A stretch of DNA of 64,000 nt, from NCBI GenBank assembly GCA_000004985.1, contig GG738893.1, one strand, 5' to 3'. Below are positions 13,633 to 61,144 of the stretch, one piece after another (position 1 is the stretch's first letter; every line of letters starts with the position of its first letter). Under the pieces are notes generated by a model that saw only the letters and a list, made by a program, of their open reading frames with translations, was not told the DNA's origin and ran no database searches. Both the position numbers and the translations under genes were made by a program. This DNA comes from Naegleria gruberi. Its lineage: Eukaryota.

Positions 13633-13991
13633 TTTTTTGTGTGATGATTTTTGATTGACACGATTTGTAACATTGATTAGAAATGATTCGGCCGTTTGTG
13701 AACTGTCATTTGCCTCATTATTTGCCCTTGTATTGTTTAAAAGAATATGCATCAATTATTATATGGACTAATCTTACATTTCATATTTGGTTTAGTTTCA
13801 TTATTGAACTTTAGTTTTCAGAGAAATCTTTGTATCTATAGATAGAATATCATATAAAAACCAAGTATTTTCAACAATTCCTTTTTCCTTACTTGAAATC
13901 GAACGTAATTTCAACAATTTTGTAATATTTTCCAATTTTGGCGCTGAAATTTCAATTCAAAAAATTAAAAAAAAATTAAAAAACTCTTTTC

Positions 13992-39810: not shown

Positions 39811-42800
39811 ATGGCAGACAATACACAGGAAGGAGATTTGGGTTTTGAAGTAGTGGATGCTAGTAGTGCTGCTGCTATTGATGATGATCCACAGCAACAA
39901 CAAGAACCGGAGACTATCGAAGAGGGATCCTTGATGGTGGAAGACTCTTCATTGGTGGAAAGTGTTGGTGTATCAGAGGAATTAGTGAGTGGTGAGGCTA
40001 TTGTGGTCGATTCCAACAATAATAATACACAAATATCTTCTTCATCATTATTATTAAATACAGAATCATCAAAATTAGATAATAGTAGCTTAAAATTACA
40101 AAAACCATCAATTCAACCAAGAGTAATTCCTGGACCTCCAATTTATGATCCGAACAAATTTCCCATCATGGATGGTGGTCATGGAGGTGTTTTAGTTACC
40201 GGAATGGCAGCAAGTGTTTCATCTTCTTTGAGTTCTGGTAATGTGATTTCTTCAATTTTAGGTGCATCAAAAGAATTTTCATCAGTGTTACCATTCCAAT
40301 TTCCTTTCGATTCGTCTTCAAATGAAAAATTCACTCTCAGCAATGTTTATCAAGATAATGCTGAAAAGTTCAAGAAATTCAAATATAGATCAGTTTGGGG
40401 TGCTAATAATTTATTGGCCTATTGTTGTCAAACTCATGTAATGATCTTTGATCCAGTTTCTATGCAACAAGTAACTTCATTGTTTGGACATAGACACGTA
40501 ACAACTTGTGTTGAATGGTGTGAAATGTCAAAATCAAGAGGAATTGAAAGAGGTAATACTAATATTGTTGCTAGTGGTGATGAAGGAGGATGTATTATTG
40601 TGTGGGATTATAAAAAAGGAAGAAAACTTTGCAGTTTTGCTGAGGACTATGGTAATACCAAGAAGAGTATTGTACAAATCAAGTGGTTGAATGGTGATAA
40701 TGTTTACTTACTTTCTTTAGCTGCCAATAATGTCTTGTCCTTGTGGAATGTTCAAAGTAATACTAGAATTTGGGATCTTGAATTCCCTGACACAATTACA
40801 GGATTTTCTTTGGATCCATTTACTTTAAAGTCATGTTGCTTACCAAGTGAAAGTGGATGGTCCTATTTTATCAATGATATTAATATTAAGAAGAAACCAA
40901 TCGATATTCAAAGAAGACTTCATGGAAGTATTGACAAAAAGACAGGAGCCACTCAAACCTCATTGAAAGATTTTATTTGTTCTCCACACACTCGTGATCA
41001 ATTTTATGTTGTGACCAAGAAGGAGGTTACAACATTTGATTTAGCCATCAAACAAACAATTCATGGAAAGCAACTCAAGGGAGGAAGAGCAGACTTCCAA
41101 ACATTATATCCTATTGAATCTGAACCATCTGTTTTTTACTCTCTTCATGATGATGGAACTGTTTGTGTTTGGGAATATAATGGTGAAAAGTTTGAACCAA
41201 ATGTTTGTGATGTTGTTAGAGGATCTAAACATGGTGCAGATAGACCTGGATTACTTTACGGACTTTCAATTTCTCCAATCGATCACTCAAAAGTAGCTGC
41301 TGTGAGTGCAGATGGTAAGATTTGGATTTGGAGAGTCAACCTTTCACACAAAATCAAGACACCACCACAAGAAGCTAAGCCAGTTGAAGAACAAGTACCA
41401 AGCTCAAAAATCAAAGTTAACACCAAGTGGATGCTTGAAGGATTGGCTGAATATACAGGATCTGTAATTAGTAGTATCAAAGTTTCTCCATTTGATGATA
41501 AAGTAGCAGTCGGAACAATTAGTGGGTTACTATTGGTATACGATTTACTTACTGGTAACGTGGTAGTTAAACATGATGTATTTAATAATTCTCCTGTATT
41601 GGGTATTAGATGGTTTGGAGCAAGTTCTGTTCTCTGCTTCTCATCTTCAGTCTATGAAAAGAAGAAGGATAGAAAAAGTAATGAATTGAGAATTGTCAAT
41701 CTCGTTTCTGGTAAACATACCACAATTAATGTTAATCGTGAGGATCAACATAAGAAGGAAGAATCCAAAGCTGGAGGAATTAAGGGTATCAGAATTAGTA
41801 ACAGTTACAAATATCTTGTAATCATTTTACAGGACAGACCAATAGAAGTATGGAGATTGGACACTCTCAAGCTCATTAGAATGATTCCATTCTCAAATGT
41901 GACATCTCTTGAATGGGTTCCACTTTCTAAACATCACCCAGAACGTGAATTATTGTACTTTACAACTACTGATGGATCTTTGCATTTCTATAAGGTCGAA
42001 AATTATAAGGTCGAACCAGATGTTAAAAAACCAAAGGTATTTGTAAATACCATTACTGCCCTAGCTTGGAAGAATGATAGACTTGTTTCTGGTGATGTTA
42101 CAGGTACCATTACTGTTTGGGATTTGCAACACAAAAAAACCAAAACAATTCAAACACACAGAGGTTTAGTTAAGAAGATCAGTGTAAGCAAGGAACATAA
42201 TCACATTTTGGTATTGTTCAATGAGGGAGACTTTGGTATTTGGGACTTGGATCAATATGCCAAGGTTGCCAATTCTCCTCCACATATCAAGGCCGTTGCC
42301 TCAGACTGGTCTAGAGGAAATTATCCTGTTGTTGCCACAAATAGTGGTTCCATCCTTGTATTTGATATTCAACTTAGTACTTGTAACACTAATGTATTGT
42401 TCCATACTCGTCTGGATCACCTTAAGAATCCTTGCTCACTTAAATCAGATGAAGCTCAATATTTTAGAGCTCTCATCGAAAATAACAAGCTTCCATTTGA
42501 TGATATGGTTGATGAAAACACAATAATAGATGAACCAAATACATACAGAAATTGTTGTGGAGATGTCATTGATAATAAGAAAGTCAAGGAGCTTTATGAA
42601 AAGGCTCTCGACCACAGATATTTACTTCCTCAAAACATGGTGGTTAAATTGAAGAATCCAAGTACAAATACTGCTGAAAGATGCTTGATTGCTGCTGAAT
42701 ACTTTGGTGATAAGATTGCCTATCAATTCTGGAAACTTGCTATTGAATTTTTGGGCAAATTCAGCAAGCAAAATATCAATCCTGCTGATATTCAAAAAGA

Positions 42801-43944
42801 GGCTCCACCTGCAGAAGAGGACCACTTCTTCACAGAACAAACAGAACTCGAAAGATTTGATTCAAACGTATGCTATAGATCATCTCTTCCTTCCACTTTT
42901 GATTTATTAAGAGATAATGACTCTGTTAGAAATGAAGAAATGAAGATTTTACAACAACATGATCAAACTTTACAACACAAGATTAAATCTGGAGCTCCAA
43001 CAGAACAAATTCAAGATTTATTCTCGCTAGTTGCCAGAAGTGAAAGTGAATTATTGCAAAAGGATCAAGCAGTTAAAACCTTACTTCAAACACCACTCGA
43101 CAGCAAAAACTTGTATGCCAACTTTTTACATGCTACTGTATTAGCAGCATCTAACTCACCATCTCACTTTAAGGAAACTGTACAATTCGTTGCTAGTTCT
43201 TTAATATCTTTAAAGAAGGACAATGATATTGAATTTGGTGTACAATTACTTTGCTCGATAGGTGAGGGATTGAAGGCATGTAGAATTTTACAAGATTTTG
43301 ATATGTGGGAAAAGGCAGCAAGAATTGCAAAGAGTATTCTCCCAGAACATGAGTCCATAATTGTACTCACCAAGTGGGCAGATTATTTACAGAGCAATAA
43401 CCAATTGTTGAAATCTATTGGTGTATGGATGAGTTTGGGACTATTCAAGGAAGTATTGGATCTTCTCCATAAATCAGAACTCGATGATATTGCCTCACTC
43501 TTCACAAAGGCCTATGACGAGTATTTACCTCATCTTCCACTCAATGAACTCCACAGATATTTTGTTTTGAGAGTTTCTTCACCATCCAAACTAAGTGAAC
43601 CATTGTACAGCAGTAGTAAGAGTCATGATGATTTTGAAATGACATGTAGAAAGCTCAAATACTTTGTCTACCAGCAATATGCAGTTTTCCTTGATAAGAT
43701 TGGATGTAATGAATTGGCGGATAATTACAAAGTTTTAATTGATGGAAAAGATATTGGACTAACTCTTCCACCTAATAATTTATCATCTCAATTACCACCA
43801 GAAGAAAGTAACAACTCTTTGGATTTGAACCGTCAAGAAAGTTGGGTAGTTGTTGATTCTGATAACAATCAACCACCACCAGAAGCCTCTCAAATCTCAA
43901 CTGATATACCATCTGAAGACATACCAACCTCTGCAGAAGAATAA
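39811..43944 (+). CDS. WDR11-like large WD40-repeat protein
   Basis: Continuous 1377-aa ORF. The N-terminal twin-propeller region parallels human WDR11 (ANNLLAYCCQTHVMIFD ... NIVASGDEGGCIIVWDYKKG ... LSLWNVQSNTRIWDL ... FSLDPFT). The C-terminal helical part matches too (VQLLCSIGEGLKACRILQDFDMWEKAARIAK against WDR11 VQLLCLIDKAADACRYLQTYGEWNRAAWLAK). Confidence 0.7.
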   Translation: MADNTQEGDLGFEVVDASSAAAIDDDPQQQQEPETIEEGSLMVEDSSLVESVGVSEELVSGEAIVVDSNNNNTQISSSSLLLNTESSKLDNSSLKLQKPSIQPRVIPGPPIYDPNKFPIMDGGHGGVLVTGMAASVSSSLSSGNVISSILGASKEFSSVLPFQFPFDSSSNEKFTLSNVYQDNAEKFKKFKYRSVWGANNLLAYCCQTHVMIFDPVSMQQVTSLFGHRHVTTCVEWCEMSKSRGIERGNTNIVASGDEGGCIIVWDYKKGRKLCSFAEDYGNTKKSIVQIKWLNGDNVYLLSLAANNVLSLWNVQSNTRIWDLEFPDTITGFSLDPFTLKSCCLPSESGWSYFINDINIKKKPIDIQRRLHGSIDKKTGATQTSLKDFICSPHTRDQFYVVTKKEVTTFDLAIKQTIHGKQLKGGRADFQTLYPIESEPSVFYSLHDDGTVCVWEYNGEKFEPNVCDVVRGSKHGADRPGLLYGLSISPIDHSKVAAVSADGKIWIWRVNLSHKIKTPPQEAKPVEEQVPSSKIKVNTKWMLEGLAEYTGSVISSIKVSPFDDKVAVGTISGLLLVYDLLTGNVVVKHDVFNNSPVLGIRWFGASSVLCFSSSVYEKKKDRKSNELRIVNLVSGKHTTINVNREDQHKKEESKAGGIKGIRISNSYKYLVIILQDRPIEVWRLDTLKLIRMIPFSNVTSLEWVPLSKHHPERELLYFTTTDGSLHFYKVENYKVEPDVKKPKVFVNTITALAWKNDRLVSGDVTGTITVWDLQHKKTKTIQTHRGLVKKISVSKEHNHILVLFNEGDFGIWDLDQYAKVANSPPHIKAVASDWSRGNYPVVATNSGSILVFDIQLSTCNTNVLFHTRLDHLKNPCSLKSDEAQYFRALIENNKLPFDDMVDENTIIDEPNTYRNCCGDVIDNKKVKELYEKALDHRYLLPQNMVVKLKNPSTNTAERCLIAAEYFGDKIAYQFWKLAIEFLGKFSKQNINPADIQKEAPPAEEDHFFTEQTELERFDSNVCYRSSLPSTFDLLRDNDSVRNEEMKILQQHDQTLQHKIKSGAPTEQIQDLFSLVARSESELLQKDQAVKTLLQTPLDSKNLYANFLHATVLAASNSPSHFKETVQFVASSLISLKKDNDIEFGVQLLCSIGEGLKACRILQDFDMWEKAARIAKSILPEHESIIVLTKWADYLQSNNQLLKSIGVWMSLGLFKEVLDLLHKSELDDIASLFTKAYDEYLPHLPLNELHRYFVLRVSSPSKLSEPLYSSSKSHDDFEMTCRKLKYFVYQQYAVFLDKIGCNELADNYKVLIDGKDIGLTLPPNNLSSQLPPEESNNSLDLNRQESWVVVDSDNNQPPPEASQISTDIPSEDIPTSAEE

Positions 43945-45570: not shown

Positions 45571-46152
45571 TTTTCATTGCTCAAGAACCATTCAAACCAA
45601 ACATGACACAAAACAACTCTCAAGAAGAGATAGAGAACCAAGCCCAATGGACACAACATTAAAGTCAAAAACACAAGAGCTGCAGTGATAATATGTGGAA
45701 TTCCTCTGGCGAGGGAATCATAATAAATCAATGTGCAAACTATTACAATTATTGAAATTCCAATATAATTAATCTCAATAAGAAAAAGCAAATTACTTAC
45801 CAATTGGATCAGTGACCAAGTAATGCACCCAACCTCCCAAAACCATCACCTTGTTTGTAAATGCCTCAGCAACAGAATCAAATGAAAAGAAATCAATTGG
45901 CTTTGGTGAAGTCATCATTGCAGTAATAATTATAGCAGAATAAACCAACGACAAGACAGCCATTACAACCTTTGATCGGAGCAAGAAATTAGTCAATCGT
46001 GTATTTGGAAGCAAAATCATTGGCAAAACAATAAGTAATGGAAATCGATTAGCAAACTTGAAAATCATACTCAAATTTTCATTACTACTCAAGTAGAGTG
46101 ATGATTGCTCAAGGAGAGCTTTATGATCAACATATTGCAATATTTGTTCCAT
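45474..46152 (-). CDS. polytopic membrane protein (hypothetical); two exons: complement(join(45474..45739, 45801..46152))
   Basis: True ATG at 46150..46152. A 61-nt GTAAGT..TAG intron in phase 1 joins …HYLVTDPI|V|CTLIYYDSLARG…. Several hydrophobic helices. Confidence 0.5.
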
Positions 46153-47933: not shown

Positions 47934-49076
47934 TTATTCTTGTTGCTTTTTCTTCTTCTTTCTATAATGTTTAACAAATGATTTCTTATCCAGCACCTTA
48001 ATTTCATTCCCCTCATGTTTAAACAGGTCATTATCGAGCATATATGATGGTTTTTCTTGCTTAAATTGAGCAAGATATGTAGAAAGGTAATTGGCACGTG
48101 ACTCATAAACAGGATAATCATCAGATTCCACCAAGTGTCTTCTCTTTGAGATGACAGTAACTCTTGCTCCATCATAATCCGTACTAAATGATTTCAAAGA
48201 ATAAAATTGACAAATGGCATGTGTAAGAAAACGTCTATGACCATCAGTTAATACCAAAACCATAAAATTACCCTTCAATCTATCTACTAATTCCGATTGT
48301 TGCTCAGCTGTATTTTCTTCCTTATTTTCATTTTCTTCATCTATAACTTTTCTTTGATTAATGAATGGAATGAGAATATCTTCCATTAAGGTCACAAAAT
48401 CTACATCATACTGTCTATTGAGGGCTTCCTTTGCTTGTTGTTCAACCAATTTATGATATCTTTGATGAGCAGTGAGCGACTTGAGGGAAGGTGCCTTCTT
48501 TTCTTTCATTTGATAACCTTGTTCTTCAAATTCTCTCAAAGCTGGTTCAATTACATTTCTAAATTCACTAGTTGTCCAAATTTCTTCGTGAGGAATAACA
48601 AATAAACTCTTGTAATCCTCCTCAGTGGCATCACCATGAAATATATTTGCATCTTTCAAATCTTTTAAATGTTTTTTAACAACTTGATCTTGTTGTACTT
48701 GAAGATTCTTTTTTCTCAACTTTTTCTTCTTATCAACTGTACTGGAAAATGTCATCAAATTTGAAGAAGGTGGGAATGAATGGGCTTGTTCAATATTTTC
48801 AATTTCAATATGATGAGATGCAACCTCTGATGAAGTAACAACATTTGATGGTTGTTGTGCTGATGAATTACCTCTATTCATCCTTCTTCCACCTCTCAAT
48901 ACAGTTGAGTTACGATCAATAGTAGCATCACCACTCAAATAACTTTCGGAATCAAAGAAAATATCATCCTCCGATGTACCACTCAAGCCTGAACTAGAAT
49001 AGTCAACATTTTGGCTTGGAAGTGTAGTACCCAAGCTATTGTGTTGAATAATAATACGTTTTGGTCTTTGACTCAT
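47934..49076 (-). CDS. R3H-domain protein (likely start MSQRPKR at 49074..49076)
   Basis: The C-terminal region carries an R3H-like core (GHRRFLTHAICQFYSLKSF ... ARVTVI, with Arg and His three residues apart). The upstream 44 codons of the track ORF look non-coding and overlap the plus-strand ORF. Confidence 0.45.
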   Translation of the reverse strand: MSQRPKRIIIQHNSLGTTLPSQNVDYSSSGLSGTSEDDIFFDSESYLSGDATIDRNSTVLRGGRRMNRGNSSAQQPSNVVTSSEVASHHIEIENIEQAHSFPPSSNLMTFSSTVDKKKKLRKKNLQVQQDQVVKKHLKDLKDANIFHGDATEEDYKSLFVIPHEEIWTTSEFRNVIEPALREFEEQGYQMKEKKAPSLKSLTAHQRYHKLVEQQAKEALNRQYDVDFVTLMEDILIPFINQRKVIDEENENKEENTAEQQSELVDRLKGNFMVLVLTDGHRRFLTHAICQFYSLKSFSTDYDGARVTVISKRRHLVESDDYPVYESRANYLSTYLAQFKQEKPSYMLDNDLFKHEGNEIKVLDKKSFVKHYRKKKKKQQE

Positions 49077-49238
49077 TTTTTTTACTTCTTTTTTTAGCTT
49101 CAAATTGTAAAAGAAAATTAATCTTGAAATTGAAGTGGTGGAATACAAGACAATGTCAATGAGAAACAAGTCAAAATGAGGGTTTACACTTGTGGTGCAA
49201 CACTTCATGTGACAGGTTCTGGTTCATTTTACAAAAAA

Positions 49239-49640
49239 ATGTCTACAAGTCATTCAGTAGATCACTTTTCAATGTTGCCCTATGAAATTTTACAAATGAT
49301 TTTGGCATTTGCTGTTGATCGGAAATTGTCGGATTGCAGTGCCATACAGTCACATGTGGAGTTTGTGGCAAATTTTCAATCCTTGAGTAAGAAGATTAAT
49401 GATTTGAAGGAGATGGCGGAATGTTTCAATGAATTTTGGTGGAATTTATTTAAGAGTTTTAGTTTTGCAACTGAAAATTATTCAAACGGGAAGGAATTGG
49501 AGCAATTGAAAAGTAAATTGATAAAAAATCGAGAGCTCAGAAGGAAGATTTTACTTTTCCGATATGTTAAATACAAAACTCTATCGAATAATAATTCTCA
49601 ACAACAAATGTTAATATTACTGGTAAGGGATTTTATATAG
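49239..49640 (+). CDS. F-box-like ORF immediately upstream of, and in frame with, the Ras-like GTPase exon (relationship unresolved)
   Basis: MSTSHSVDHFSMLPYEILQMILAFAVDRKL (F-box-like). It ends at TAG 49638..49640. The next codon, 49641, opens the GTPase reading frame in the same phase. Confidence 0.35.
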   Translation: MSTSHSVDHFSMLPYEILQMILAFAVDRKLSDCSAIQSHVEFVANFQSLSKKINDLKEMAECFNEFWWNLFKSFSFATENYSNGKELEQLKSKLIKNRELRRKILLFRYVKYKTLSNNNSQQQMLILLVRDFI

Positions 49641-50318
49641 TTCAACATTTTCTTAAATGATAAAGTTCTTGGAAGTGAAAGAGTAGGAAAATCATCCATT
49701 ACAATATTCTTTGTAACAAATTTTGTAATTGATGATCATGAGTCATCGTTTGAGGATACCTATGTTAAACAATTGAAAATAGACAGACTATCGGTCAAAC
49801 TTGCAATTTTAGACACAAGTAAGTTGTTGAATATGTGAAATTTACACAATGAAATAGTTGAATCGGATTATCATTATTTGAGAGAAACACATATTCTATA
49901 TGCAGATGGTTTTGTCTTGATTTGCTCTGTGGATAACATAAAATCACTTGTGGGAATTCGAGAACAAGTTGCAAAAATTGTAAGAGTGAAAGATCTCGAA
50001 GTCAATAGCACTCCAATTGTGTTTGTAATTAACAAGATTGATTTATTACAAAATGACAATAGGAAACAAACAATCGATGAATTCAAAAAGGAAATTAATA
50101 ATATAATCAAAGAGTATGACTTGGTGAATACAAGTACAATGCTGAGCAGTGTTAAAAGTGAACCAGAGAAAATTACTTTAATATTTGAGGAATTGGTAAA
50201 AAGACAAATTCTGCAAGGTGACAATATAGAAATTCTTAAAAATGTTGTAGAGAAAGATTGGTCATACATTCAGGAATGCAACAATACATTGAATAAGAAG
50301 AAGTGCTCATTAATGTAA
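49641..50318 (+). CDS. Ras-superfamily small GTPase with a CAAX box (CSLM) and a divergent switch II; join(49641..49818, 49858..50318); initiator codon not identified
   Basis: G1 is KVLGSERVGKSS. Switch I is SFEDTYVKQ. Then LAILDT | IESDYHYLRETHILYADGFVLICSVDNIKS (a 39-nt GTAAGT..TAG intron), NKID (G4) and a C-terminal CSLM. DTIESD replaces the canonical DTAGQE. Confidence 0.6.
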
Positions 50319-50385
50319 TTGACTTGTGAATTTGTCATTTGGAAATTTAAGGATGATGTGAACAGGAAAATTATTTAAAGTTAAT

Positions 50386-52929
50386 TTAATCATCATTGCC
50401 AGCATACTTATTGTACACAGAACCCAGGAAGCTCTTTGGAATTTCCATTTTGTCCAGCCTTACAGGTTGTGGTTTGTTGTGAGGTCTGGAAAATGAAGAG
50501 CAACAAGCCCAAATAATATAACTAACTTGCACACTAAGCCATCTAGCATGTCCTCTGGAATCAACACATTCTGCCATTAATTCTTTTCTATTTCTATCAG
50601 AGCTGAACATTTTCATGAGAGAAGCTGAATCATTATTATTGGTGGATTTTAGATTTGAAGGAGGAAGATCAATACCTGGAATCTTTAAAGAATAGACATT
50701 GACTTCTGGGAGGTTAGGTAAGTGCTTATTAATTTGAGTTACAGCAAATCTGATAATGAAGAGAAGACCCAGTCTCGGGTATGTTGGGAATTCCACGTCT
50801 GGAATACCTTCCAACTTTTCTAATTCTTGTAAAATCTTTGGGATGTTAAATACTACATTATGTTGACTGCTAATTGTAACATTTTCAACATCTTTCTTTT
50901 TGAAAGAAATAATGCATTGTTTCAAAGAATGAATAAGCTCCTTGAAGGTTAATGGTGGGATAAATCCAACATCCATTGACATTCTCTCGTTTCTATTTGG
51001 CAGCTCAATAAGAGTCTTTTCAATAAGCATTAACAATGAAGGAATTGATATATCTAACGGAATGACCATGTCTAGTTCATCAACATGACTTGAAATATAC
51101 TCAAAGATCTTTAAAATAATGTTAGTCAGTGTCATACTACTAAAGTTAGGACACTCAATGTTTGGTTCATCCAATGTTTCAAACATCTCTGCAATAATTT
51201 CAAAAGCAGATGCAAAATTAGTTTCACCAAATCCTAAATCAATCTTCTTTTCGGTGAAATTCTTCATAAAGAAGCATCTTGATGCAATTCTACACACTGA
51301 GGATGGTTTCTCAAATGCTTTCACACCAGGAAGCCACACTTTTGGATCTTGAACTCTATCAATCTTCTTGATTAAATGTTCAAATACCATAAACTTGGAA
51401 AGTTTGAATAAATTCTTCTTTAAAATCTTTGAGATTGCAATCTCAGTTTCCTTTTCCTTTTTTTGTGTCTTGATATTTGATTTTAAGAAGATACCATGTC
51501 GACCTTCTTCTGTATTGAATTGACCATAATAAATGGTTGAAAACATTGTATAGGGGAATCTTCTTGCTCTCTTGTATGAACTCTCTTTCTTTTTTGAATT
51601 GTATGCGAAAGTGTAGATTGCTTGATCTGTTAAACATAATAATCTTTCTTGGAATTGACCTCTGTGATTAATCTTATTTACTGTCCATCCATACTTGAAT
51701 TCCTCAGCCTTCTTTGCTTGTATTCCTTCACTTTTTTCGTAATCTGCCCAATACTGATTGATACTCTCAATGCAGTTTTGTTTTTCTTCTTCTTTTAATT
51801 GGTAAAAGCTCTCAGAGTTTGAAATGATTTCTAATAAAGGATCCACGGTTTTAAAATTCAATGCAGCATAGTTTGTGAGATCCTTCATCAATTCAATAAG
51901 ATCGTCTTGTTCCTGATTTGTTATCTGTTCTAATTTTACAAATTTCTTTCTCATCATTTCAAATTTACAAGCAATTCCAATAGCTTTTGAAATTTCTTTT
52001 GGAGAAACATGACCAATGTGATATCTATAAACACCATAAATATACAAGGTCTTTTTACAAATATAACAAAAACCAGAATCTGGAGGTTTTGGTTTTCTAT
52101 CATCTTCACTGTTTCTAAACACTATTGTATCAACGGCATCTGCAATTTCATTTGCTTCCAAGCCATGTTCATGAGTTACAAGTCTGAAAGCACTGATTAG
52201 TGAAAGAATGGAATAACTACATTCCAGACTGCAAAAGTTACTTAGACAAAGGTCAACATTTCCTGCCTTTTCAAATGATTCCCAATCCACTTCAATCTTG
52301 AGGTCATAACTTGGAAGCAACATTTCACCCTTAATAGAATTTTGAGAAATTGAAATTGATCTTGTGATAAACTCTTGATAGTATTCTCTATTAACTCCTA
52401 GAAGAGAACCCAACTTTAACATGAAAGAATTACTGCCAACATCTCCCATAAGGGAAGGTCCTTCATCAAATACAACAGCAATTTGTAAATTTCCATCAAT
52501 AAGAGTTAATGTTGTAGAGTTAATATCAGATATTACCGAGTACTCTTCATCACATCGTTGATAATCTAATCCATCAGCAACAAATAATGTCTCGTTCACC
52601 AGCTCTTCTTTCAAGAATGGTTTTGCTGCTACCGTTATCTTTTTAACCTTTTGAGCAAAGGATGTTCTTATATTCTCGTAATCTTCTCTCTGTAATAAAA
52701 ACTCTATAACATCTAACAAGTGTCCGAGAATGAAAAAGCCATCCCAAACTTGAAGATGTTCCAGAGAATTTTCAAAGTTATTACTAAATTGTTTAATACT
52801 TGAAAAATTAACCTCTACATCTATCAGTTCTCCAATAAGGGACATAAGCTTGTCTTTAACAGCTGGTATAATCTCTCCCTTAATTTTATCCTCCATAATT
52901 TGAGCCTGAAGGTTAACTTTTACACTCAT
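50386..52929 (-). CDS. large hypothetical protein (~848 aa)
   Basis: Uninterrupted ORF with a true ATG at 52927..52929. No confident family assignment from sequence. Confidence 0.45.
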   Translation of the reverse strand: MSVKVNLQAQIMEDKIKGEIIPAVKDKLMSLIGELIDVEVNFSSIKQFSNNFENSLEHLQVWDGFFILGHLLDVIEFLLQREDYENIRTSFAQKVKKITVAAKPFLKEELVNETLFVADGLDYQRCDEEYSVISDINSTTLTLIDGNLQIAVVFDEGPSLMGDVGSNSFMLKLGSLLGVNREYYQEFITRSISISQNSIKGEMLLPSYDLKIEVDWESFEKAGNVDLCLSNFCSLECSYSILSLISAFRLVTHEHGLEANEIADAVDTIVFRNSEDDRKPKPPDSGFCYICKKTLYIYGVYRYHIGHVSPKEISKAIGIACKFEMMRKKFVKLEQITNQEQDDLIELMKDLTNYAALNFKTVDPLLEIISNSESFYQLKEEEKQNCIESINQYWADYEKSEGIQAKKAEEFKYGWTVNKINHRGQFQERLLCLTDQAIYTFAYNSKKKESSYKRARRFPYTMFSTIYYGQFNTEEGRHGIFLKSNIKTQKKEKETEIAISKILKKNLFKLSKFMVFEHLIKKIDRVQDPKVWLPGVKAFEKPSSVCRIASRCFFMKNFTEKKIDLGFGETNFASAFEIIAEMFETLDEPNIECPNFSSMTLTNIILKIFEYISSHVDELDMVIPLDISIPSLLMLIEKTLIELPNRNERMSMDVGFIPPLTFKELIHSLKQCIISFKKKDVENVTISSQHNVVFNIPKILQELEKLEGIPDVEFPTYPRLGLLFIIRFAVTQINKHLPNLPEVNVYSLKIPGIDLPPSNLKSTNNNDSASLMKMFSSDRNRKELMAECVDSRGHARWLSVQVSYIIWACCSSFSRPHNKPQPVRLDKMEIPKSFLGSVYNKYAGNDD

Positions 52930-53418
52930 CTCCAATTCTTTTTAATTTTTTTGATGATGAAGAGAATGGCCAATGATCACTCAAACTTGTTTTACTGTTC
53001 TTAAAAAGTCGACATGGTATTTGCTGCTCTCTCAAGAAATAGTAATCAACATGCCAAAACTCTAAAACTCTGCTATCATTTTTTCAATTCAAAGACCATT
53101 ATTATTAAATAATAGTGCTTTATCAATAAGCTTTAGAATGGTTTTAAAGCATGTTAGTGAATTTGTCTTGCCTTAAAAAATAATATAAAATAATTCAAAC
53201 CAGAATAAATTCTTCTGCTCTTAAAAAATATCATCGGAAGAGTGGTACCATTAATGATATATAACAACTGATGAAGCAAATTGTGCCGCCTCAGGCGGAA
53301 AGTTAATATGTCGATAAACACTCTCATGACCTTTATTCTGATCTGTTTCTTTGATAATAAGATTATCAAATAGAGTTTCAATATTGATTTGAATTTTGAT
53401 TTTTACATCCATCAAAAA

Positions 53419-55008: not shown

Positions 55009-58000
55009 ATGGTCAACATTAGCTCGGAGAAACTTCATCAAACACAACAAGATACTGAACATGTGAGAAATATTTGTATTATTGCTCACGTTGATCACGG
55101 AAAAACAACATTATCAGATTTTTTAATATCCAGTAATGGAATCATCAGTAGTAACTTGGCAGGAAAGATGAGATACATGGATAGTACAGCCTACGAACAA
55201 GAAAAGAGAATTACAATGAAAAGTAGTGCTATTAGTTTATTATATAAAGATAAAAACGATGAAAATTCGGATGAATATATAATTAATTTAATCGATTCAC
55301 CAGGGCACGTGGATTTTAGTAGTGAAGTGAGTACAGCAGCAAGACTTTCCGATGGATGTTTAGTGTTAGTGGATGTTGTTGAAGGTGTTTGTACACAAAC
55401 AAAGACAGTTCTTGAACAAGCCTTCAGAGAAAATATTAAACCATGTCTAGTTTTAAATAAGATTGATCGTTTGATACTTGAAAAACAAATGACACCAATG
55501 GAAGCTTACAAACAAATGTTACACATTTTACAACAAGTCAACGTATTATTGACAACTTTTGTTACAGTTCAATTATTCAAGAAAATTAATGAACAAGATG
55601 AAAAGAAGGAAGATACAAAGGAAGAGGAAACAAAGGATCAATCAAAGCAACAATATGACAATGTTTTTGATGATAATGAAGTTGACAGTAATGACTTTTT
55701 CTCACCATCAAAGGGTAACGTTTTGTTTGCTAGTGCCTATGATGGTTGGGGATTTAGAATTAATGATTTTAGTGAAATTTTCTCAAAGAAGATGGGTATG
55801 AATAAGAATACACTTCAACAAACACTTTGGGGTGATTTTTATTTGAATCCAAAGAAGAAAGCAATCTCAAAAAAGCCAATCAAAGATGATCAACCAAATA
55901 TGTTTGTTCAATTCATTTTGCAAAACATTTATAGTGCATACGATTGTTTACTGATTAATCGTGATGAAGAAAAGATTAAGAAAATGATCCAAGCTTTAGA
56001 TTTGAATTTATCTAAAGCATTCTTGTCAAAGAATGATCACAAGAGTCAGCTTAAAACATTGATGAATCAATGGTTACCAATGTCTGATTCCATCTTATCT
56101 ATGGTTGTTAGCAGGTTACCAAATCCAAAAGAAGCTCAAAAGGAAAGAGTCTTAGACCTTATTCCAGAATTAAAGACAATCAAGGATAAAACCAATGAAA
56201 CTAAGAAATCAAACCAAGTCAATGCTGAAATTAGAACTCAAAGAAGAAAGCTGAAGAAGAATTTAATGCAATGCGACAAGAGTGATAATGCTGAAGTGTT
56301 GATTTTCGTTTCAAAGATGTTCGAAGCTGATGAAATACCAACCCAAGGTGGTTCAGCAACTAAGATAGATCAAATCCAACTTCAAAGAGAAAGATTGAGA
56401 AAACTCAGAGAAGAAAGATTAAAGCAAAAGGAGCTCGGAGAAACTTCCACAACAGAAACTGACTCTGCTCAACCTACTGAAGGTTCTGAATCAACAGAAA
56501 CAAATGAAGAAAATAACCAAGAGAATGATACTGAAGCAAGCAAGCTTGTTGCTTTTTGTAGAATTTTCAGTGGTACAATCAGAGTTGGACAAACTTTGCA
56601 TATTCTTGGCCCAAGATACAATGCTTCCAATCCTAATGAAGATCGTATCGAATTCAAGGTTGATAAGCTCTTCCTTTTGATGGGTAGAGGTCTGGAATGT
56701 GTTGATAGTGTGCCAGCTGGTAATATTTTCGGTTTGGGTGGTGTTGGTAAGCATATTTTGAAAACTGCCACTATTTCATCAAGCACTCATTCACCAATCT
56801 TCTCGGCAATGTATGTCCAATCTATTCCTATTGTTAGATTTGCTATAGAACCACAAAATTTGATGGATATGCCAAAATTGGTTAAGGGTCTCAAACTCTT
56901 GAACCAAGCCGATCCATCTGTTGAAGTACTTGTACAAGAAACAGGTGAACATGTTATTGTCACTGCTGGAGAAGTCCATGCCGAAAGATGTATAAGAGAT
57001 TTGAATGAAAGATTCGCCAAGGTTCCAATAACTGTTTCTCCACCACTTGTCAGTTTCAGAGAAACTATTATTGAACAACAAAAGGAACCAGTAATAGCCT
57101 CTAAGAAAACTGGTAACAAGAGATGGACCATCAAGATTAAGGCTATTCCACTCCCTGAAAATATTGCCCACTACATCGATAAACATAAGGAAGATTTCAG
57201 AGCTTATTTCTCTAACGACTCTAGAAGAACATCCAAGTCTGTCTTTGTTACCTCTGAGGTTATTGATGGATTGAAACAACAATTTATTGATGCAGGAAAG
57301 CAATGGGAAACTGAGTGGGATAATGTGTGGTGTTTAGGTCCAAGAAGAATTGGTCCAAATGTACTCTTGAATCACATTCCAGATTACAAAACACCAAACT
57401 TTGAACCTTTGCACAAACAAGTTGCTGACATGTTGGCAGAAAATGAAGACGAAGAAACAACAGCAACAGAGGAACCAGTTGAAACATCTGAAAGAATAGA
57501 ATCCCTTAAACAATTTGATCACAGTTTTATTTCAGGCTTCCAACTTGCTACAAACTCTGGTCCATTGTGTGACGAACCAATGTATGGCGTTTGTTTCTGT
57601 ATTGAAGATGTAGTTTTCGAAACTGAGGGAATTCATGACGAAGACTTTGGTGGTCCATTTACTGGACAAATCATGAGTTCAATGAAGACTGCTTGTAGAA
57701 AATCCTTTGATAACAGTCAAAGAAGATTGGTAGAAGCCATGTACGATTGTGAAATTCAAGCTACCAATGAAAGTGTTGGTAGTGTTTGTGATGTTTTGAG
57801 AAGAAGAAGAGCCAAGATTTATTCAGATGATATGGAGGAAGGAAGTGGTCTCTTCATTATCAAATGTCACTTGCCAGTTGCTGAAAGTTTTGGATTTTCA
57901 GAAGAATTAAGAACAAGAACAAGTGGTGCTGCTCAACCTCAAATTGCATTCTCACATTGGCAAATTCTCGATGTGGATCCATTCTTTGTTCCAACCACTG

Positions 58001-58158
58001 AAGATGAGCTTGAAGAATGGGGAGAAAAGGGTCTTATCAATATTCCAAATATTGCCAAGCAATATATTGATGCTGTAAGAAAGAGAAAGGGTTTGATGCT
58101 TGACAAGAAGACTGTTGAATCTGCTGAAAAGCAAAGAAACTTATCAAAGAAGAAGTAA
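55009..58158 (+). CDS. EFL1: elongation factor-like GTPase 1 (EFL1/Ria1; 60S ribosome maturation GTPase)
   Basis: RNICIIAHVDHGKTTLSDFLISSNGIISSNLAGKMRYMDS ... LIDSPGHVDFSSEVSTAARLSDGCLVLVDVVEGVCTQTKTVLEQAF ... LNKIDRL is almost residue-for-residue with human EFL1. The G-domain starts at residue ~20, so this is EFL1, not Snu114. A large insertion lies between G-domain elements. The EF-2-like C-terminus reads GFQLATNSGPLCDEPMYGV. Confidence 0.85.
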   Translation: MVNISSEKLHQTQQDTEHVRNICIIAHVDHGKTTLSDFLISSNGIISSNLAGKMRYMDSTAYEQEKRITMKSSAISLLYKDKNDENSDEYIINLIDSPGHVDFSSEVSTAARLSDGCLVLVDVVEGVCTQTKTVLEQAFRENIKPCLVLNKIDRLILEKQMTPMEAYKQMLHILQQVNVLLTTFVTVQLFKKINEQDEKKEDTKEEETKDQSKQQYDNVFDDNEVDSNDFFSPSKGNVLFASAYDGWGFRINDFSEIFSKKMGMNKNTLQQTLWGDFYLNPKKKAISKKPIKDDQPNMFVQFILQNIYSAYDCLLINRDEEKIKKMIQALDLNLSKAFLSKNDHKSQLKTLMNQWLPMSDSILSMVVSRLPNPKEAQKERVLDLIPELKTIKDKTNETKKSNQVNAEIRTQRRKLKKNLMQCDKSDNAEVLIFVSKMFEADEIPTQGGSATKIDQIQLQRERLRKLREERLKQKELGETSTTETDSAQPTEGSESTETNEENNQENDTEASKLVAFCRIFSGTIRVGQTLHILGPRYNASNPNEDRIEFKVDKLFLLMGRGLECVDSVPAGNIFGLGGVGKHILKTATISSSTHSPIFSAMYVQSIPIVRFAIEPQNLMDMPKLVKGLKLLNQADPSVEVLVQETGEHVIVTAGEVHAERCIRDLNERFAKVPITVSPPLVSFRETIIEQQKEPVIASKKTGNKRWTIKIKAIPLPENIAHYIDKHKEDFRAYFSNDSRRTSKSVFVTSEVIDGLKQQFIDAGKQWETEWDNVWCLGPRRIGPNVLLNHIPDYKTPNFEPLHKQVADMLAENEDEETTATEEPVETSERIESLKQFDHSFISGFQLATNSGPLCDEPMYGVCFCIEDVVFETEGIHDEDFGGPFTGQIMSSMKTACRKSFDNSQRRLVEAMYDCEIQATNESVGSVCDVLRRRRAKIYSDDMEEGSGLFIIKCHLPVAESFGFSEELRTRTSGAAQPQIAFSHWQILDVDPFFVPTTEDELEEWGEKGLINIPNIAKQYIDAVRKRKGLMLDKKTVESAEKQRNLSKKK

Positions 58159-58317: not shown

Positions 58318-61144
58318 TTAATTAGTATATTCAAGTAAAGTATTAAAAACCCATCTAATAATTGTGTTTTTAATTATTACACTTTCGACTCCCAATGGTT
58401 GCGAGAGAGCATGTTTAATCTTTGCTTCTTTATCACCATTAAAACTAATTAGTGCGTCAATAATATTTTCAAAATCACTTCCATAAATTTCAACAATCAC
58501 AAGCCTGTTTTCGGATATTCCAATACACTCTTTCAATAAAACATGTATTTCGTCTTCTTTCCAACATTTTGGAGTTAATTTATCGAGAACAACATTACCA
58601 ATTATTATCCTTCCTGAAGCTCTCTGTAATGCTGGAATATTTAAAACACTAGTAGAATATTGTGAAACAGTGTGCATTTGAGAGGATCCAATATTTGCAA
58701 TATTTGATGATATATCTGAAAAAGGAGTATGTGAATATTCTAAAGTTTGTGGGGATGAATTATTTTGAAAGAATCCAGACTGAAAACAAATCATTTCTCT
58801 ATACAAATCTTTCTTTTTCGTACAGTAATTATGAAATAGAGAATACAATTCATTGCTTAATAAATTCTGCAAGCCCTTCTTAGACAGTAATAATACTTGA
58901 AAACCTCCTTTCTTCAATTGTAACCAAGACTCTGTTCCAACCCTTGACTTTGTGTAGCTTAATTTTCCATCGTCCTGTAAATAGCATGTTTCTGTTATTA
59001 GAAGTGATCCAGAATTATCAGCATTATTTTCAATGACTCTCTGCAATTCGTCTGAAAATCCCAGAACTACCATTATTAATAAAAAGTGTAAATTATCTCC
59101 CTGTAATGATGGTTTTTCATCACAGCTATAGGTATTGGGTAGGAAATTTACCGCTTGATCGATTTCCTTTTGTAAAAGATCCTTAGTAAAATTCTTTTCA
59201 AACAATTCCACATCAAACAATAATAATTTTCTTAATAATTGAGATGAAGTTTTGTTCAAAGTTATTAATATATCAAATCCAGTATTTGTTTCTCCACCAG
59301 GAATAGCAGCACAAAATTGATTTCCACTCATAGCGTCATCTAACACTGAAATAAATGATGTATAACTAGTTTTTAGGTACTTTCCAAATCCCATCGTTTG
59401 GTAGTCGAACTTCTCAGTCGTACTTGTTGGTGAAAATCCAGGAATTAACTTATTATGTGTTTCAAAATTGGAAGGTAATTCTAAATTACTAAAAAAGGTA
59501 TCTTTGAATATGCCACCACATAAATCCCCAAATAGAATAACTTCTCTTGTTTTTGTAAATGAGATAACTAACATTTCAGCCAATAGATCAATGACCGATA
59601 ATTCCAATGCCTTGGGAGCTTTGAGAACATTGTTATTGTTTTGCAATAATTGGTAACGAATTCCACTGATAGGTGCTTTAAATTGTGCCAAGTTCTTTAA
59701 AATACTATCTTTCATTAGCTTGGGAATGATAATCTTGATGACATTATCTTCCAAAACTTGAAAATGGAGTTTCAAATAAGGAATTATTTCAATCAAGTTT
59801 CTCCAACTCCTGTTAAAGTATATTTTCTAAAACTATTATTAAATCCATAACTAATATACTCACTGTTTGTAAGGGTATTGCAACATCAAAGGAATGGATA
59901 AAATATAATTGAGCCACTAAATTGGCTTCTTCTCTAGTCTTGATATTGATGGTTATATCACTTTGTTTTTGATCAGAATTTACAACAGCTTTACAAATTT
60001 TCTCTCTTGATGATAAATCATTCAAGTTGTACAATATGCTTTTGAATGCATTTTCCATTATTCTAGGAACAGTACCTGTATAATCCACAAGAATATCTAT
60101 AAATTCCTCAATATCATTTAATCCTAACAACTTGAAAGCATCTAATAGTGAAATTTTGCATTCCCCTTTTTGCACAACACTTTGTTCAAGCAATATTTGA
60201 ATAACTTCTTTTGTCATTGAGGACAAAAAGACAAGACAGTAATCAGAAGGTAAACTTCCTTTGAATATTTGATTATTTTCTTGCAAAGCCAAATGTACTG
60301 GAATATGTCCACTAAATATAACAGTACTCCTAATGGGAGTAATAAGGTGAGTAACATCTGACCATAATTCTTGAAACCGACTCAAATACAGATCATCACA
60401 ACCTATCTTACATGTGTTCCATTTAGAATCTTTCAATTGTCCTTCAAAATCATTCAACAAAATTGCATCTACTTCATCAATAAATACTAAATATCCTTCA
60501 GGTAAGGATTCATCACTATTTAAAGCTTGAAATATTTGGCTTGCTGAATAATGCTCTTGATTTGTAATATTCTTCAATTTTTGGTGAAATCTTCGTCGTT
60601 GTTTTAAAAGTTCTGGTGGTGTGTTTTCTATTGCTTTTTGAATTAATTGGCATTCATAGGACCAAACCACAAAATCAGCAATTTTTTGGCTCATACTTTC
60701 AATAGTTTGCCCTGAATAAAGAACTATGGGAAAATATCTAAAATCCAATTCAAATAACTGTAAGTCTCTAATCCATTTGTACTCCTCTTTCCATACGCCA
60801 TATTTGAATTCATATACCTCTCTGAACCTTCTTACCAAACTCGTTTTACCAATTCCAAAAGTTTGAAATAGGGACACTAATTTACTATTGCTCAGAGACG
60901 AATGCTTATTGGAAGCTAAGGTATTAACGATTCGTTCAGCTTCTTTTTCACGATTTACAAATTTTAAACGTAACGTTGCGGTTGTGAGGTCTTTTGTTGC
61001 TATGCTCGTACCAATTTTGTTTGCACTATTCGTTGGCGAAGTAGGTTTGGAATTGGAAGAATTGTTGGATGTGGTGGCTTCTTGCTTGTTCTTTTTGTTG
61101 AGCATTTCGTGCTCTGCAAGTTTATCCAGTTTTCGTTTATGCAT
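58318..61144 (-). CDS. large P-loop NTPase-domain protein (about 930 aa in total), reading frame interrupted near 59797..59815
   Basis: The N-terminal half has Walker A (FGIGKTSL) and Walker B (LVFIDEVDAIL). The two long minus-strand ORFs (59813..61144 and 58318..59796) are separated only by a TAA in one frame. The second frame is already open from 59817, so the two overlap within an A/T-rich run. No GT..AG intron of suitable length or phase is available. Confidence 0.45.

What the first reader, a model, noticed from the sequence alone, without database searches (positions are those of the whole stretch)
49600..49660. Ras-like GTPase exon opens directly after an in-frame TAG, with no initiator ATG; candidate catalytically impaired GTPase
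The GTPase reading frame (FNIFLNDKVLGSERVGKSS…) starts at 49641, immediately after the TAG that ends an F-box-like ORF in the same frame. No ATG lies between the TAG and the G1 motif. The only GT donor nearby (GTAAGG at 49625, right after ATG-TTA-ATA-TTA-CTG = MLILL, which would make an ideal Ras N-terminus) cannot be joined in frame to any AG acceptor. So the gene either uses an undetected upstream exon, reads through TAG, or is an F-box-GTPase fusion broken by a nonsense mutation. Separately, switch II reads DTIESD instead of DTAGQE, so the catalytic Gln is absent. The CAAX box (CSLM) is intact, as in the Rnd/RhoH type of constitutively GTP-bound GTPases.
Basis: partly seen in the sequence, partly recalled or inferred. 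Interest (0 to 1): 0.5.

Follow-up and report, generated by a model that had tools for sequence, protein, structure and literature searches.

The report
Naegleria F-box-like Ras gene, shifted splice acceptor
This is an already annotated Naegleria gruberi gene for a Ras-type GTPase with an F-box-like N-terminal extension, and the puzzling TAG sits inside a short intron whose 3' end is one base out of register, so this copy is probably a recently disabled family member (or carries a base error) and is not a new kind of gene.

Summary
The window is Naegleria gruberi NEG-M. The locus is NAEGRDRAFT_71880 (XP_002673059.1, "predicted protein").

An F-box-like ORF (ATG 49239 or 49176) ends at TAG 49638-40. 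The Ras frame continues in the same frame from 49641, with no in-frame ATG before the P-loop.

The gene belongs to a Naegleria-specific Ras subgroup listed in Herman et al. 2021, Table S8. Members have an N-terminal LPxEIL/FNxFWW extension, a linker helix, a Ras domain and a polybasic CaaX tail.

Twenty-one relatives show that the TAG lies in a 42-nt insert absent from all of them. The insert looks like the window's inferred short introns (GTAAGG donor, 77% AT, branch-like TTCTTAAAT). Removing 49623-49664 gives ...QQQMLILL|VLGSERVGKSS, a gapless match to the closest paralogue.

The only AG is one base further on (49664-65). Canonical 43-nt splicing therefore frameshifts. The RefSeq model (153-nt intron) and the Herman model (18-nt intron) are in-frame workarounds that fit the family profile less well.

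The most likely reading is a recently broken acceptor or a base error.

Switch II reads DTIESD (no Gly60, no Gln61). Glu12, Arg13 and Ser35 are also atypical. Impaired catalysis is plausible but untested.

This is a known family and of low novelty.

The parts
49176..49178 (+). First in-frame ATG of the upstream ORF. The curated model of Herman et al. 2021 starts here (MRVYTCG...).
49239..49622 (+). Exon 1, from the ATG that homology favours (MSTSHSVDHFSMLPYEIL...) to ...QQQMLILL. It encodes the N-terminal extension and the conserved linker.
   Evidence: The closest paralogue P0003 starts MAPHESLFSLLPYEIF...
49266..49403 (+). F-box-like segment: LPYEILQMILAF, a roughly 15-aa insertion, then FQSLSKKI.
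   Evidence: hhalign of the family N-terminal profile against an F-box alignment gives 90% probability over 33 columns. There are weak Pfam F-box-like hits in 8 of 15 relatives but none for this protein.
49425..49451 (+). FNEFWWNLF, the signature motif of this subgroup's N-terminal extension.
49494..49574 (+). Conserved linker helix ELEQLKSKLIKNRELRRKILLFRYVKY. The RefSeq model treats most of it as intron.
   Evidence: It is conserved in all relatives. The family HMM score falls by 50 bits when it is spliced out.
49513..49518 (+). GTAAAT, the donor used by RefSeq model XP_002673059.1 (153-nt intron 49513-49665, phase 1).
49623..49665 (+). Intron 1 candidate: GTAAGG...TTCTTAAAT...AAAG, 43 nt, 77% AT. 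It contains the TAG. Family-type protein needs 42 nt removed (49623-49664), so canonical excision frameshifts.
49638..49640 (+). The in-frame TAG. It is also the AG of the 18-nt excision (49623-49640) used in the Herman et al. curated model.
49664..49664 (+). The base that is critical under the proposed explanation. An ancestral G here would give a 42-nt GT...AG phase-0 intron (AAG|GTT). The assembled A moves the only AG one base into the exon.
   Evidence: Inference.
49665..49818 (+). Exon 2: VLGSERVGKSS... to ...LAILDT plus the first base of Ile. P-loop GSERVGKS is at 49671-49694. Switch I HESSFEDTY is at 49737-49763.
49819..49857 (+). Intron 2, 39 nt, GTAAGT...ATGAAATAG, phase 1, with an in-frame TGA inside.
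   Evidence: RefSeq and Herman et al. splice it the same way.
49858..50318 (+). Exon 3. Rest of switch II (IESD), NKID at 50031-50042, SSVK at 50145-50156, C-terminal helix ILKNVVEKD, polybasic NKKK, CaaX CSLM at 50304-50315, TAA at 50316-50318.

Best explanation
The locus is NAEGRDRAFT_71880 of Naegleria gruberi. It is one member of a Naegleria-specific expansion of Ras-family GTPases. These carry an N-terminal F-box-like helical extension, a conserved linker helix and a polybasic farnesylation-type CaaX tail.

The GTPase reading frame seems to open straight after a TAG because the TAG lies inside a short spliceosomal intron. That intron sits between the codons for ...MLILL (the first half of strand beta-1) and VLGSERVGKS (the rest of beta-1 plus the P-loop).

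The family-type protein needs exactly 42 nt removed (49623-49664). The sequence as assembled offers a GT at 49623, but the only usable AG is at 49664-65. Canonical splicing therefore removes 43 nt and shifts the frame (...MLILLFLEVKE*).

The simplest history is a G-to-A change at the last intron base (AAG|GTT to AAA|GTT). A one-base loss at the exon edge would have the same effect. Either one moves the acceptor one base into the exon.

As assembled, this copy is most likely a very recently disabled paralogue or null allele of a birth-and-death family. Both published gene models are in-frame workarounds.

What is shown and what is inferred:
- Shown: family membership, the insert being non-coding in relatives, the off-by-one geometry, and the intron-like features.
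- Inferred: the mutational history, and that the copy is non-functional.

If the protein is made, it has an intact P-loop Lys/Ser, NKxD and CaaX. It lacks Gly12, Gly13, Thr35, Gly60 and Gln61. It would be expected to bind nucleotide, to hydrolyse and switch poorly, and to sit on membranes.
For: Identity:
- The query matches XP_002673059.1 / EFC40315.1 of N. gruberi.
- The same locus is listed as a manually corrected 'Ras' model in Table S8 of Herman et al. 2021 (PMC8296547).

Family:
- 21 relatives were aligned, from that table and from the representative search. They include P0003, the closest N. gruberi paralogue (41% identity, 333 aa), and members from N. lovaniensis and Willaertia.
- They share LPxEIL, FQS, FNxFWW, LKRKxLL, the Ras domain, LLKxVIxxD and KK-CaaX.

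The insert:
- Every relative has a gap opposite FNIFLNDK.
- Every relative has residues opposite the linker that RefSeq splices out.
- Removing 49623-49664 gives QQQMLILLVLGSERVGKSSITIFF against QQQEEVKIIVLGEGGVGKSAITIFF in P0003. The resulting protein is 332 aa.

Profile scores. An HMM built without this gene scores the 42-nt removal at 292.6 bits, the 18-nt removal at 283.5, read-through at 280.9 and the RefSeq splice at 242.1.

Intron likeness:
- Seven short introns were inferred in the window from ORF continuity. They are 37-61 nt and 74-83% AT, start GTAAGT, GTGAGT, GTATGT or GTAAAT, and carry TTCTAAT/TTTAAT-like motifs about 10-20 nt before the 3' end.
- The candidate is 43 nt and 77% AT. 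It starts GTAAGG and has TTCTTAAAT about 10 nt before its AG.

Frame arithmetic. From donor 49623 only the AG at 49640 is in frame. The AG at 49665 gives a frameshift with a stop after 6 codons.

Family dynamics. For the neighbouring Rab-like F-box groups, Herman et al. describe members disrupted by mutations and 'birth-and-death evolution'. Table S8 flags pseudogenes among the Ras rows too.
Against: - No transcript data could be reached, so which junction is used, if any, is unknown.
- The curators of Table S8 did not flag this gene as a pseudogene.
- The rest of the gene is fully open (332 codons). It matches family consensus positions as well as other members do: 0.69, within a family range of 0.55-0.96. 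Any inactivation must therefore be very recent, or the gene still works through one of the in-frame splices.
- The candidate acceptor is AAG, whereas all seven inferred introns in the window end in TAG.
- No relative whose DNA I could read has an intron at this position. The W. magna gene has introns elsewhere and the N. lovaniensis gene has none. So an ancestral intron here is not independently confirmed.
- The genomic loci of the closest N. gruberi paralogues were not retrievable.
Confidence: 0.55

Rival explanations
1. The assembly has a single-base error, or records a minor allele, at 49663-49665. The true sequence would be ...ATAAG|GTT or ...ATAAAG|GTT. The gene would then be intact: a canonical 42- or 43-nt phase-0 intron and a 332-aa family-type protein.
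For: - One base restores a perfect family-type junction.
- The rest of the ORF shows no decay.
- The site lies next to a short A run.
Against: - No second copy of the sequence could be obtained. The protein look-ups found no N. gruberi record and the metagenome scan gave no hits.
- From general knowledge, the NEG-M assembly is Sanger-based with a low per-base error rate. An error at exactly this base therefore has a low prior compared with pseudogenisation, because Table S8 already flags pseudogenes in this family.
Confidence: 0.15
2. The RefSeq/JGI model is the real transcript. A 153-nt intron (GTAAAT at 49513 to the AG at 49665) is removed, giving ...ELEQLK|ILGSERVGKSS. The protein keeps the F-box-like part but lacks the linker helix and the native beta-1 strand.
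For: - The sites are canonical GT...AG and in frame.
- GTAAAT is also the donor of one inferred intron in the window.
- It uses the same acceptor and branch-like motif as the 43-nt candidate.
Against: - It removes 37 codons that are open, in frame and conserved in every relative.
- It costs 50 bits against the family profile.
- It replaces a fully hydrophobic beta-1 (LILLVLG) with EQLKILG.
- The model also starts at an internal Met that cuts the LPYEIL motif. That looks like an ab initio prediction with no transcript support.
Confidence: 0.15
3. The curated model of Herman et al. is right. An 18-nt micro-intron (49623-49640, GTAAGG...TATAG) is spliced out, and the protein carries an extra FNIFLNDK before the P-loop.
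For: - It is in frame and GT...AG, and its 3' end (TATAG) matches the TAG ending of the window's inferred introns.
- It scores only 9 bits below the best model.
Against: - At 18 nt it is less than half the shortest intron inferred in the window (37 nt). It is also below the 30-nt minimum chosen for Naegleria read mapping from predicted genes.
- It leaves no room for a branch site.
- The 8 extra residues are absent from all 21 relatives. They would put Asn-Asp-Lys into the buried beta-1 strand.
Confidence: 0.08
4. One reading: the TAG is a nonsense mutation in once-continuous coding sequence, or it is read through by the ribosome.
For: The two ORFs are in the same frame and are separated by a single stop.
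Against: - All 14 codons around the stop (VRDFI*FNIFLNDK) have no counterpart in any relative, so this was not continuous coding sequence.
- The read-through product scores below both spliced alternatives.
- Every long ORF in the window is consistent with the standard code. Nothing points to stop-codon reassignment.
Confidence: 0.03

Closest known systems
Naegleria gruberi XP_002673059.1 (NAEGRDRAFT_71880) and its manually corrected version in Table S8 of Herman et al. 2021, BMC Biol 19:142 (PMC8296547)
   Same: It is the same locus. The 39-nt intron, the C-terminus and the classification as Ras family are identical.
   Different: - RefSeq splices out the conserved linker (153 nt) and starts at an internal Met.
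- The curated version removes only 18 nt and keeps 8 residues that no relative has.
- Neither model gives the junction that the family alignment and profile favour, which is 42 nt removed.
- Neither source flags the locus as disrupted.
N. gruberi 'ras family small GTPase' P0003 (333 aa) and XP_002677816.1, the closest paralogues
   Same: The domain order and motifs are the same from LPYEIF to KKKCSIM. P0003 is 41% identical overall and almost the same length.
   Different: The paralogues keep canonical G motifs except position 61 (GEGGVGKS, YDPTIED, DTAGPEE, SAK). This gene has GSERVGKS, HESSFED, DTIESD and SVK.
F-box plus GTPase multidomain proteins of Naegleria (Rab-like, Rho/Rac, Ran and G-alpha families), described by Herman et al. 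2021, Additional file 4
   Same: - An N-terminal F-box-type extension sits upstream of a small GTPase domain.
- Some groups end in CaaX.
- The groups are lineage-specific expansions that include disrupted members.
   Different: - Those groups are Rab-like, Rho, Ran or G-alpha. The paper does not list Ras among the F-box fusions, and Table S8 gives no F-box label to this Ras subgroup.
- Here the F-box assignment rests only on weak profile evidence.
GTPase-deficient, constitutively GTP-bound small GTPases such as Rnd1-3 and RhoH. Their properties are taken from general knowledge and were not tested here.
   Same: Substitutions at the Ras positions 12, 59/60 and 61, and a CaaX box ending in Met, which is the farnesyl-type rule.
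   Different: - By sequence this is Ras proper and not Rho. The best PDB hits are KRas/HRas.
- It also lacks Gly60 of DxxG and Thr35. It may therefore be closer to a non-switching pseudo-GTPase than to a locked-on one.
- No biochemistry exists.

Membership tests
Ras family small GTPase (Pfam PF00071) | Whole-domain profile match above the curated threshold | tested here: met
   PF00071 E = 8.1e-17, 61.7 bits against a cut-off of 21.6. The best solved relatives are KRas/HRas at 4e-18.
Ras family small GTPase (Pfam PF00071) | G1 P-loop GxxxxGK[ST] | tested here: met
   GSERVGKS at 49671-49694. Positions 12 and 13 are Glu and Arg in place of Gly-Gly.
Ras family small GTPase (Pfam PF00071) | G2 switch I Thr35 | tested here: not met
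   YDPTIED is replaced by HESSFED. A Ser occupies the Thr35 column.
Ras family small GTPase (Pfam PF00071) | G3 DxxG followed by the catalytic Gln61 | tested here: not met
   The motif reads DTIESD. There is no Gly60 and no Gln61 in either the MAFFT or the HMMER alignment. Most relatives have DTAGP, so Gln61 is lost across the family.
Ras family small GTPase (Pfam PF00071) | G4 NKxD and G5 SAK | tested here: met
   NKID is at 50031-50042. G5 is SSVK, with Ala changed to Val.
Ras family small GTPase (Pfam PF00071) | C-terminal CaaX prenylation box | tested here: met
   CSLM preceded by NKKK. Relatives end in C-x-x-M, Q, C or V. Prenylation itself is not testable here.
Naegleria N-terminally extended Ras subgroup (Herman et al. 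2021, Table S8) | Shared extension motifs LPxEIL, FQS[IL], FNxFWW and LKRKxLL, plus the C-terminal LLKxVIxxD helix | tested here: met
   All are present and aligned. The family HMM built without this gene scores 292.6 bits.
Naegleria N-terminally extended Ras subgroup (Herman et al. 2021, Table S8) | An uninterrupted reading frame obtainable through canonical splicing that gives the family-type junction | tested here: not met
   The family-type junction needs 42 nt removed. The canonical GT...AG excision is 43 nt and frameshifts.
F-box domain (Pfam PF00646 / PF12937) | Profile match of this protein to an F-box model | tested here: not met
   No F-box family was reported for this protein, either full length at E up to 0.1 or for residues 1-116 at E up to 1.
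F-box domain (Pfam PF00646 / PF12937) | Family-level similarity to F-box helices H1-H3 | tested here: inconclusive
   - 8 of 15 relatives hit F-box-like weakly (best E = 0.0038), and 2 hit F-box-like_2 (best 1.8e-4).
- The PDB profile search gives only AnkB at E 0.98 and FBXL5 at E 1.7.
- The AlphaFold model of the N-terminus was too poor to use (pLDDT 55).
F-box domain (Pfam PF00646 / PF12937) | Binding to Skp1 | not testable with these tools
   Needs a pull-down or co-expression experiment.
Rnd/RhoH-type atypical Rho GTPases | Rho-family sequence affiliation | tested here: not met
   The 60 PDB matches listed are all Ras-subfamily chains: KRas, HRas and one M-Ras, with no Rho. Herman et al. 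also class the gene as Ras.
Rnd/RhoH-type atypical Rho GTPases | No GTP hydrolysis; constitutively GTP-bound | not testable with these tools
   Only the substitutions at positions 12, 13, 35, 60 and 61 are seen.

The most novel reading that the evidence does not exclude
The gene is functional because the Naegleria spliceosome removes either a non-canonical 42-nt GT...AA intron or an 18-nt micro-intron. The first would restore the perfect family junction. The second would be far shorter than any intron inferred in this window.

The product would be a farnesylated, hydrolysis-dead Ras domain fused to a divergent F-box. It could act as a membrane-anchored substrate receptor for an SCF ubiquitin ligase.
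Probability: 0.07. Interest if true: 0.5.

Novelty: already known. Interest (0 to 1): 0.2.

Why it matters
The result matters mainly for annotation. Two public models of this gene disagree, and the family comparison suggests that neither gives the ancestral junction. The copy may be a freshly disabled member of a fast-turnover family.

That fits the birth-and-death picture already proposed for Naegleria's expanded GTPase families. It also illustrates how gene predictors rescue a broken splice site with in-frame workarounds.

A smaller point concerns the N-terminal extension of this Ras subgroup. It is not labelled in the published table, and it appears to be a divergent F-box. [quoted passage not shown]

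None of this changes what is known about GTPases or splicing.

Tried and rejected
- **Yeast origin.** I first suspected a yeast because of 33% GC and compact genes. The protein search identified Naegleria gruberi.
- **Independent DNA or transcripts.** Exact-protein look-ups for the RefSeq model, the upstream ORF and the closest paralogue found no N. gruberi record. A metagenome scan with an exon-2 27-mer found nothing.
- **Spliced models on the remote tools.** For the same reason the spliced variants could not be folded.
- **Intron position in relatives.** The Willaertia magna homologue has two introns at other positions. The N. lovaniensis homologue is intronless. Neither helps with the beta-1 intron.
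- **Insert as a repeat or mobile element.** No copy of the 42-43-nt insert occurs elsewhere in the window.
- **Profile search with the N-terminal extension alone.** It returned nothing at E up to 0.01, even though the family exists. I take this as a sensitivity limit of the word index and not as evidence.
- **AlphaFold of residues 1-128 with a 5-row alignment.** It gave pLDDT 55 and an all-helical model. No fold search was run on it.
- **Literature search by locus tag or accession.** It found nothing in main texts.
- **Extra sequence decay.** The consensus-match fraction is within the family range, so divergence gives no independent support for long-term pseudogene status.
Full report
**Source and identity.** The window has 31-37% GC and is densely packed with long ORFs. 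A protein search with the spliced product matched one protein almost perfectly: Naegleria gruberi "predicted protein", 276 aa (P0001). Its accessions are EFC40315.1, XP_002673059.1 and NAEGRDRAFT_71880, on a 337-kb scaffold. The window is therefore N. gruberi NEG-M nuclear DNA and the finding concerns an annotated gene.

**The observation.**
- Translation of 49179-50321 in one frame gives an ORF (ATG at 49176 or 49239) that reads MSTSHSVDHFSMLPYEILQ...QQQMLILLVRDFI, then TAG at 49638-40.
- The same frame continues FNIFLNDKVLGSERVGKSS...LAILDTSKLLNM, then a TGA.
- After that it reads ...ESDYHYLRE...NKKKCSLM, then TAA.
- There is no in-frame ATG between the TAG and the P-loop.
- Removing the 39-nt GTAAGT...ATAG intron (49819-49857) gives DTIESD.
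- Pfam calls the second half a Ras domain (E = 8e-17). The nearest solved structures are KRas and HRas (E about 4e-18).
The donor is at 49623, not 49625. The claim that no in-frame acceptor exists is wrong.

**Three competing gene structures.**
1. RefSeq (P0001) joins GTAAAT at 49513 to the AG at 49664-65. This is a 153-nt phase-1 intron giving ...ELEQLK|ILGSERVGKSS, and the model starts at an internal Met (MILAFAV).
2. Table S8 of Herman et al. 2021 (PMC8296547) lists this accession as a manually corrected "Ras" model that reads ...QQQMLILL|FNIFLNDKVLGSERVGKSS. Only the 18 nt GTAAGG...TATAG (49623-49640) are removed, and it is not flagged as a pseudogene.
3. The canonical GT(49623)...AG(49665) pair is 43 nt and frameshifts to ...MLILLFLEVKE*.

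**What relatives say.**
- The same table, an exhaustive HMMER search and a profile search gave at least 20 relatives with the same layout. They come from N. gruberi, N. lovaniensis, Willaertia magna and environmental contigs.
- The layout is LPxEIL..IL.F, FQS[IL], FNxFWW, a linker helix with LKRKxLL, the Ras domain, a C-terminal LLKxVIxxD helix and a basic stretch plus CaaX.
- The closest is N. gruberi P0003 (333 aa, 41% identity).
- In the alignment, every relative has residues opposite the linker that RefSeq discards. Every relative has a gap opposite FNIFLNDK.
- Deleting exactly 49623-49664 gives QQQMLILLVLGSERVGKSSITIFF, a gapless match to QQQEEVKIIVLGEGGVGKSAITIFF of P0003. It also restores four hydrophobic residues before the P-loop Gly, as in all members. 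The product is 332 aa.
- A family HMM built without this gene scores the 42-nt removal at 292.6 bits, the 18-nt removal at 283.5, read-through at 280.9 and the RefSeq splice at 242.1.

**Is the 42-43-nt stretch an intron?**
- From ORF continuity I inferred seven short introns in the window: 35633-35674, 49819-49857, 59827-59863, 38289-38337, 33682-33723, 12150-12193 and 45740-45800.
- They are 37-61 nt and 74-83% AT, with GTAAGT, GTGAGT, GTATGT or GTAAAT donors. They carry TTCTAAT/TTTAAT-like motifs 10-20 nt upstream of a TAG acceptor.
- I re-spliced three of them (59827-59863, 12150-12193, 38289-38337) and each gives an uninterrupted reading frame across the junction.
- The candidate is 43 nt and 77% AT. 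It starts GTAAGG and has TTCTTAAAT about 10 nt before AAAG. It has no copy elsewhere in the window.
- It looks like a normal Naegleria intron except for a weaker AAG acceptor that is one base too far downstream.
- An 18-nt intron would be less than half the shortest one inferred here. It would also be below the 30-nt minimum that Herman et al. derived from predicted Naegleria genes.

**Explanation.**
- The TAG is intronic, and the upstream ORF is the 5' exon with its own ATG.
- The junction is broken by one base. If position 49664 was once G, the intron was a 42-nt phase-0 GT...AG intron (AAG|GTT).
- A G-to-A transition destroys that AG and creates a new one using the first exon base. Canonical splicing then deletes one coding base.
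- A one-base deletion at the exon edge, or a base-call error, would look the same.
- The rest of the gene is open. It matches family-consensus positions at 0.69, inside the family range of 0.55-0.96. Any lesion is therefore recent.
- Herman et al. describe disrupted members and birth-and-death turnover in the neighbouring Naegleria GTPase expansions, and they flag pseudogenes among the Ras rows.
- I could not obtain transcripts or a second copy of the sequence. The choice between a real lesion, an assembly error and a functional workaround splice remains open.

**The GTPase motifs.** Against HRas/KRas and the family:
- P-loop GSERVGKS: Glu12 and Arg13, with Lys16 and Ser17 kept.
- Switch I HESSFEDTY: Ser in place of Thr35.
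- Switch II DTIESD: Asp57 and Thr58 kept, Gly60 and Gln61 absent.
- NKID intact. SAK reads SVK.
- Mismatches to the family consensus include most of the nucleotide-binding and switch positions, while all family-invariant positions are kept.
- Loss of Gln61 is not specific to this gene. Most relatives have Pro61 (DTAGPEE), and several lack Gly60 and Gln61 altogether.
- Impaired hydrolysis is a reasonable inference. A constitutively GTP-bound state is not shown. The loss of Gly60 and Thr35 could equally mean a non-switching pseudo-GTPase.
- CSLM follows NKKK. By the usual CaaX rule (general knowledge), a terminal Met predicts farnesylation.

**The N-terminal extension.**
- Pfam finds no F-box in this protein.
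- At family level, 8 of 15 N-termini hit F-box-like weakly (best E = 0.0038) and 2 hit F-box-like_2 (best 1.8e-4).
It pairs LPxEIL..IL.F with helix 1 and, after a 15-residue insertion, I....QSI.K with the VCK-W region.
- The PDB profile search gave only marginal F-box hits (AnkB, FBXL5).
- The AlphaFold model of residues 1-128 was all-helical but unreliable (pLDDT 55).
- "F-box-like" is plausible but unproven.
[quoted passage not shown] They do not label this Ras subgroup.

**Verdict.** The same-frame TAG is explained by a short intron with an off-by-one acceptor. Read-through and a nonsense mutation in coding sequence do not explain it. The locus is an ordinary, possibly just-disabled, member of a published lineage-specific family. 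The useful outcomes are that both public gene models are probably wrong at this junction and that the Ras-subgroup extension is likely a divergent F-box.

Noticed in passing
window 35633-35674 (+), 59827-59863 (-), 38289-38337 (-), 33682-33723 (-), 12150-12193 (-), 45740-45800 (-), 49819-49857 (+): Seven short introns (37-61 nt, 74-83% AT) were inferred from ORF continuity. All seven end in TAG, and most carry a TTCTAAT/TTTAAT-like motif 10-20 nt upstream. This is a compact local picture of Naegleria splice signals. It suggests that the published mean intron length of 203 nt for N. gruberi gene models may be inflated by a few long predicted introns.
   Followed up: partly
window 49239-49298 and RefSeq model P0001: The RefSeq model starts at an internal Met (MILAFAV...) that cuts through the conserved LPYEIL motif. 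Two upstream in-frame ATGs exist, at 49239 and 49176. Homology to P0003 favours 49239, whereas the curated literature model uses 49176.
   Followed up: partly
P0004 and P0005 (relatives, sequences), compared with window 49848-49857: Two truncated relatives start 'MKIAGPEEF' and 'MKSLAGNQDF', exactly at the DT|AG position. Intron 2 of this gene ends ...ATGAAATAG. This suggests that the paralogues share an intron at the same site with a similar 3' end, and that their models start from an ATG inside that intron.
   Followed up: no
window 50043-50144 (between NKID and SSVK): The whole subgroup has about 9-10 more residues than HRas between the G4 and G5 motifs (...QNDNRKQTIDEFKKEINNIIKEYDLVN...). 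From general knowledge this is roughly where Rho GTPases carry their insert helix. Its structure and role are unknown.
   Followed up: no
window 11402-13755 (-): A two-exon gene (44-nt intron at 12150-12193) encodes a protein of about 770 aa. It has a hydrophobic N-terminal segment, repeated GN.I..N / DAGAIY-type motifs that suggest a right-handed beta-helix, and a hydrophobic C-terminus. It may be a surface or secreted protein.
   Followed up: no
window 39811-43944 (+), 55009-58158 (+), 50386-52935 (-), 47934-49076 (-): The neighbouring genes are a WDR11-like WD40/TPR protein, an EFL1 (Ria1)-type elongation-factor-like GTPase, a protein with an hSac2 domain and one with a weak R3H match. None is functionally linked to the Ras gene in any obvious way.
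   Followed up: no
(tool behaviour): The word-indexed profile search with the N-terminal extension alignment returned no hit at E up to 0.01, although family members such as P0003 are in that database. Negative results from that tool for short divergent domains should not be read as absence.
   Followed up: no
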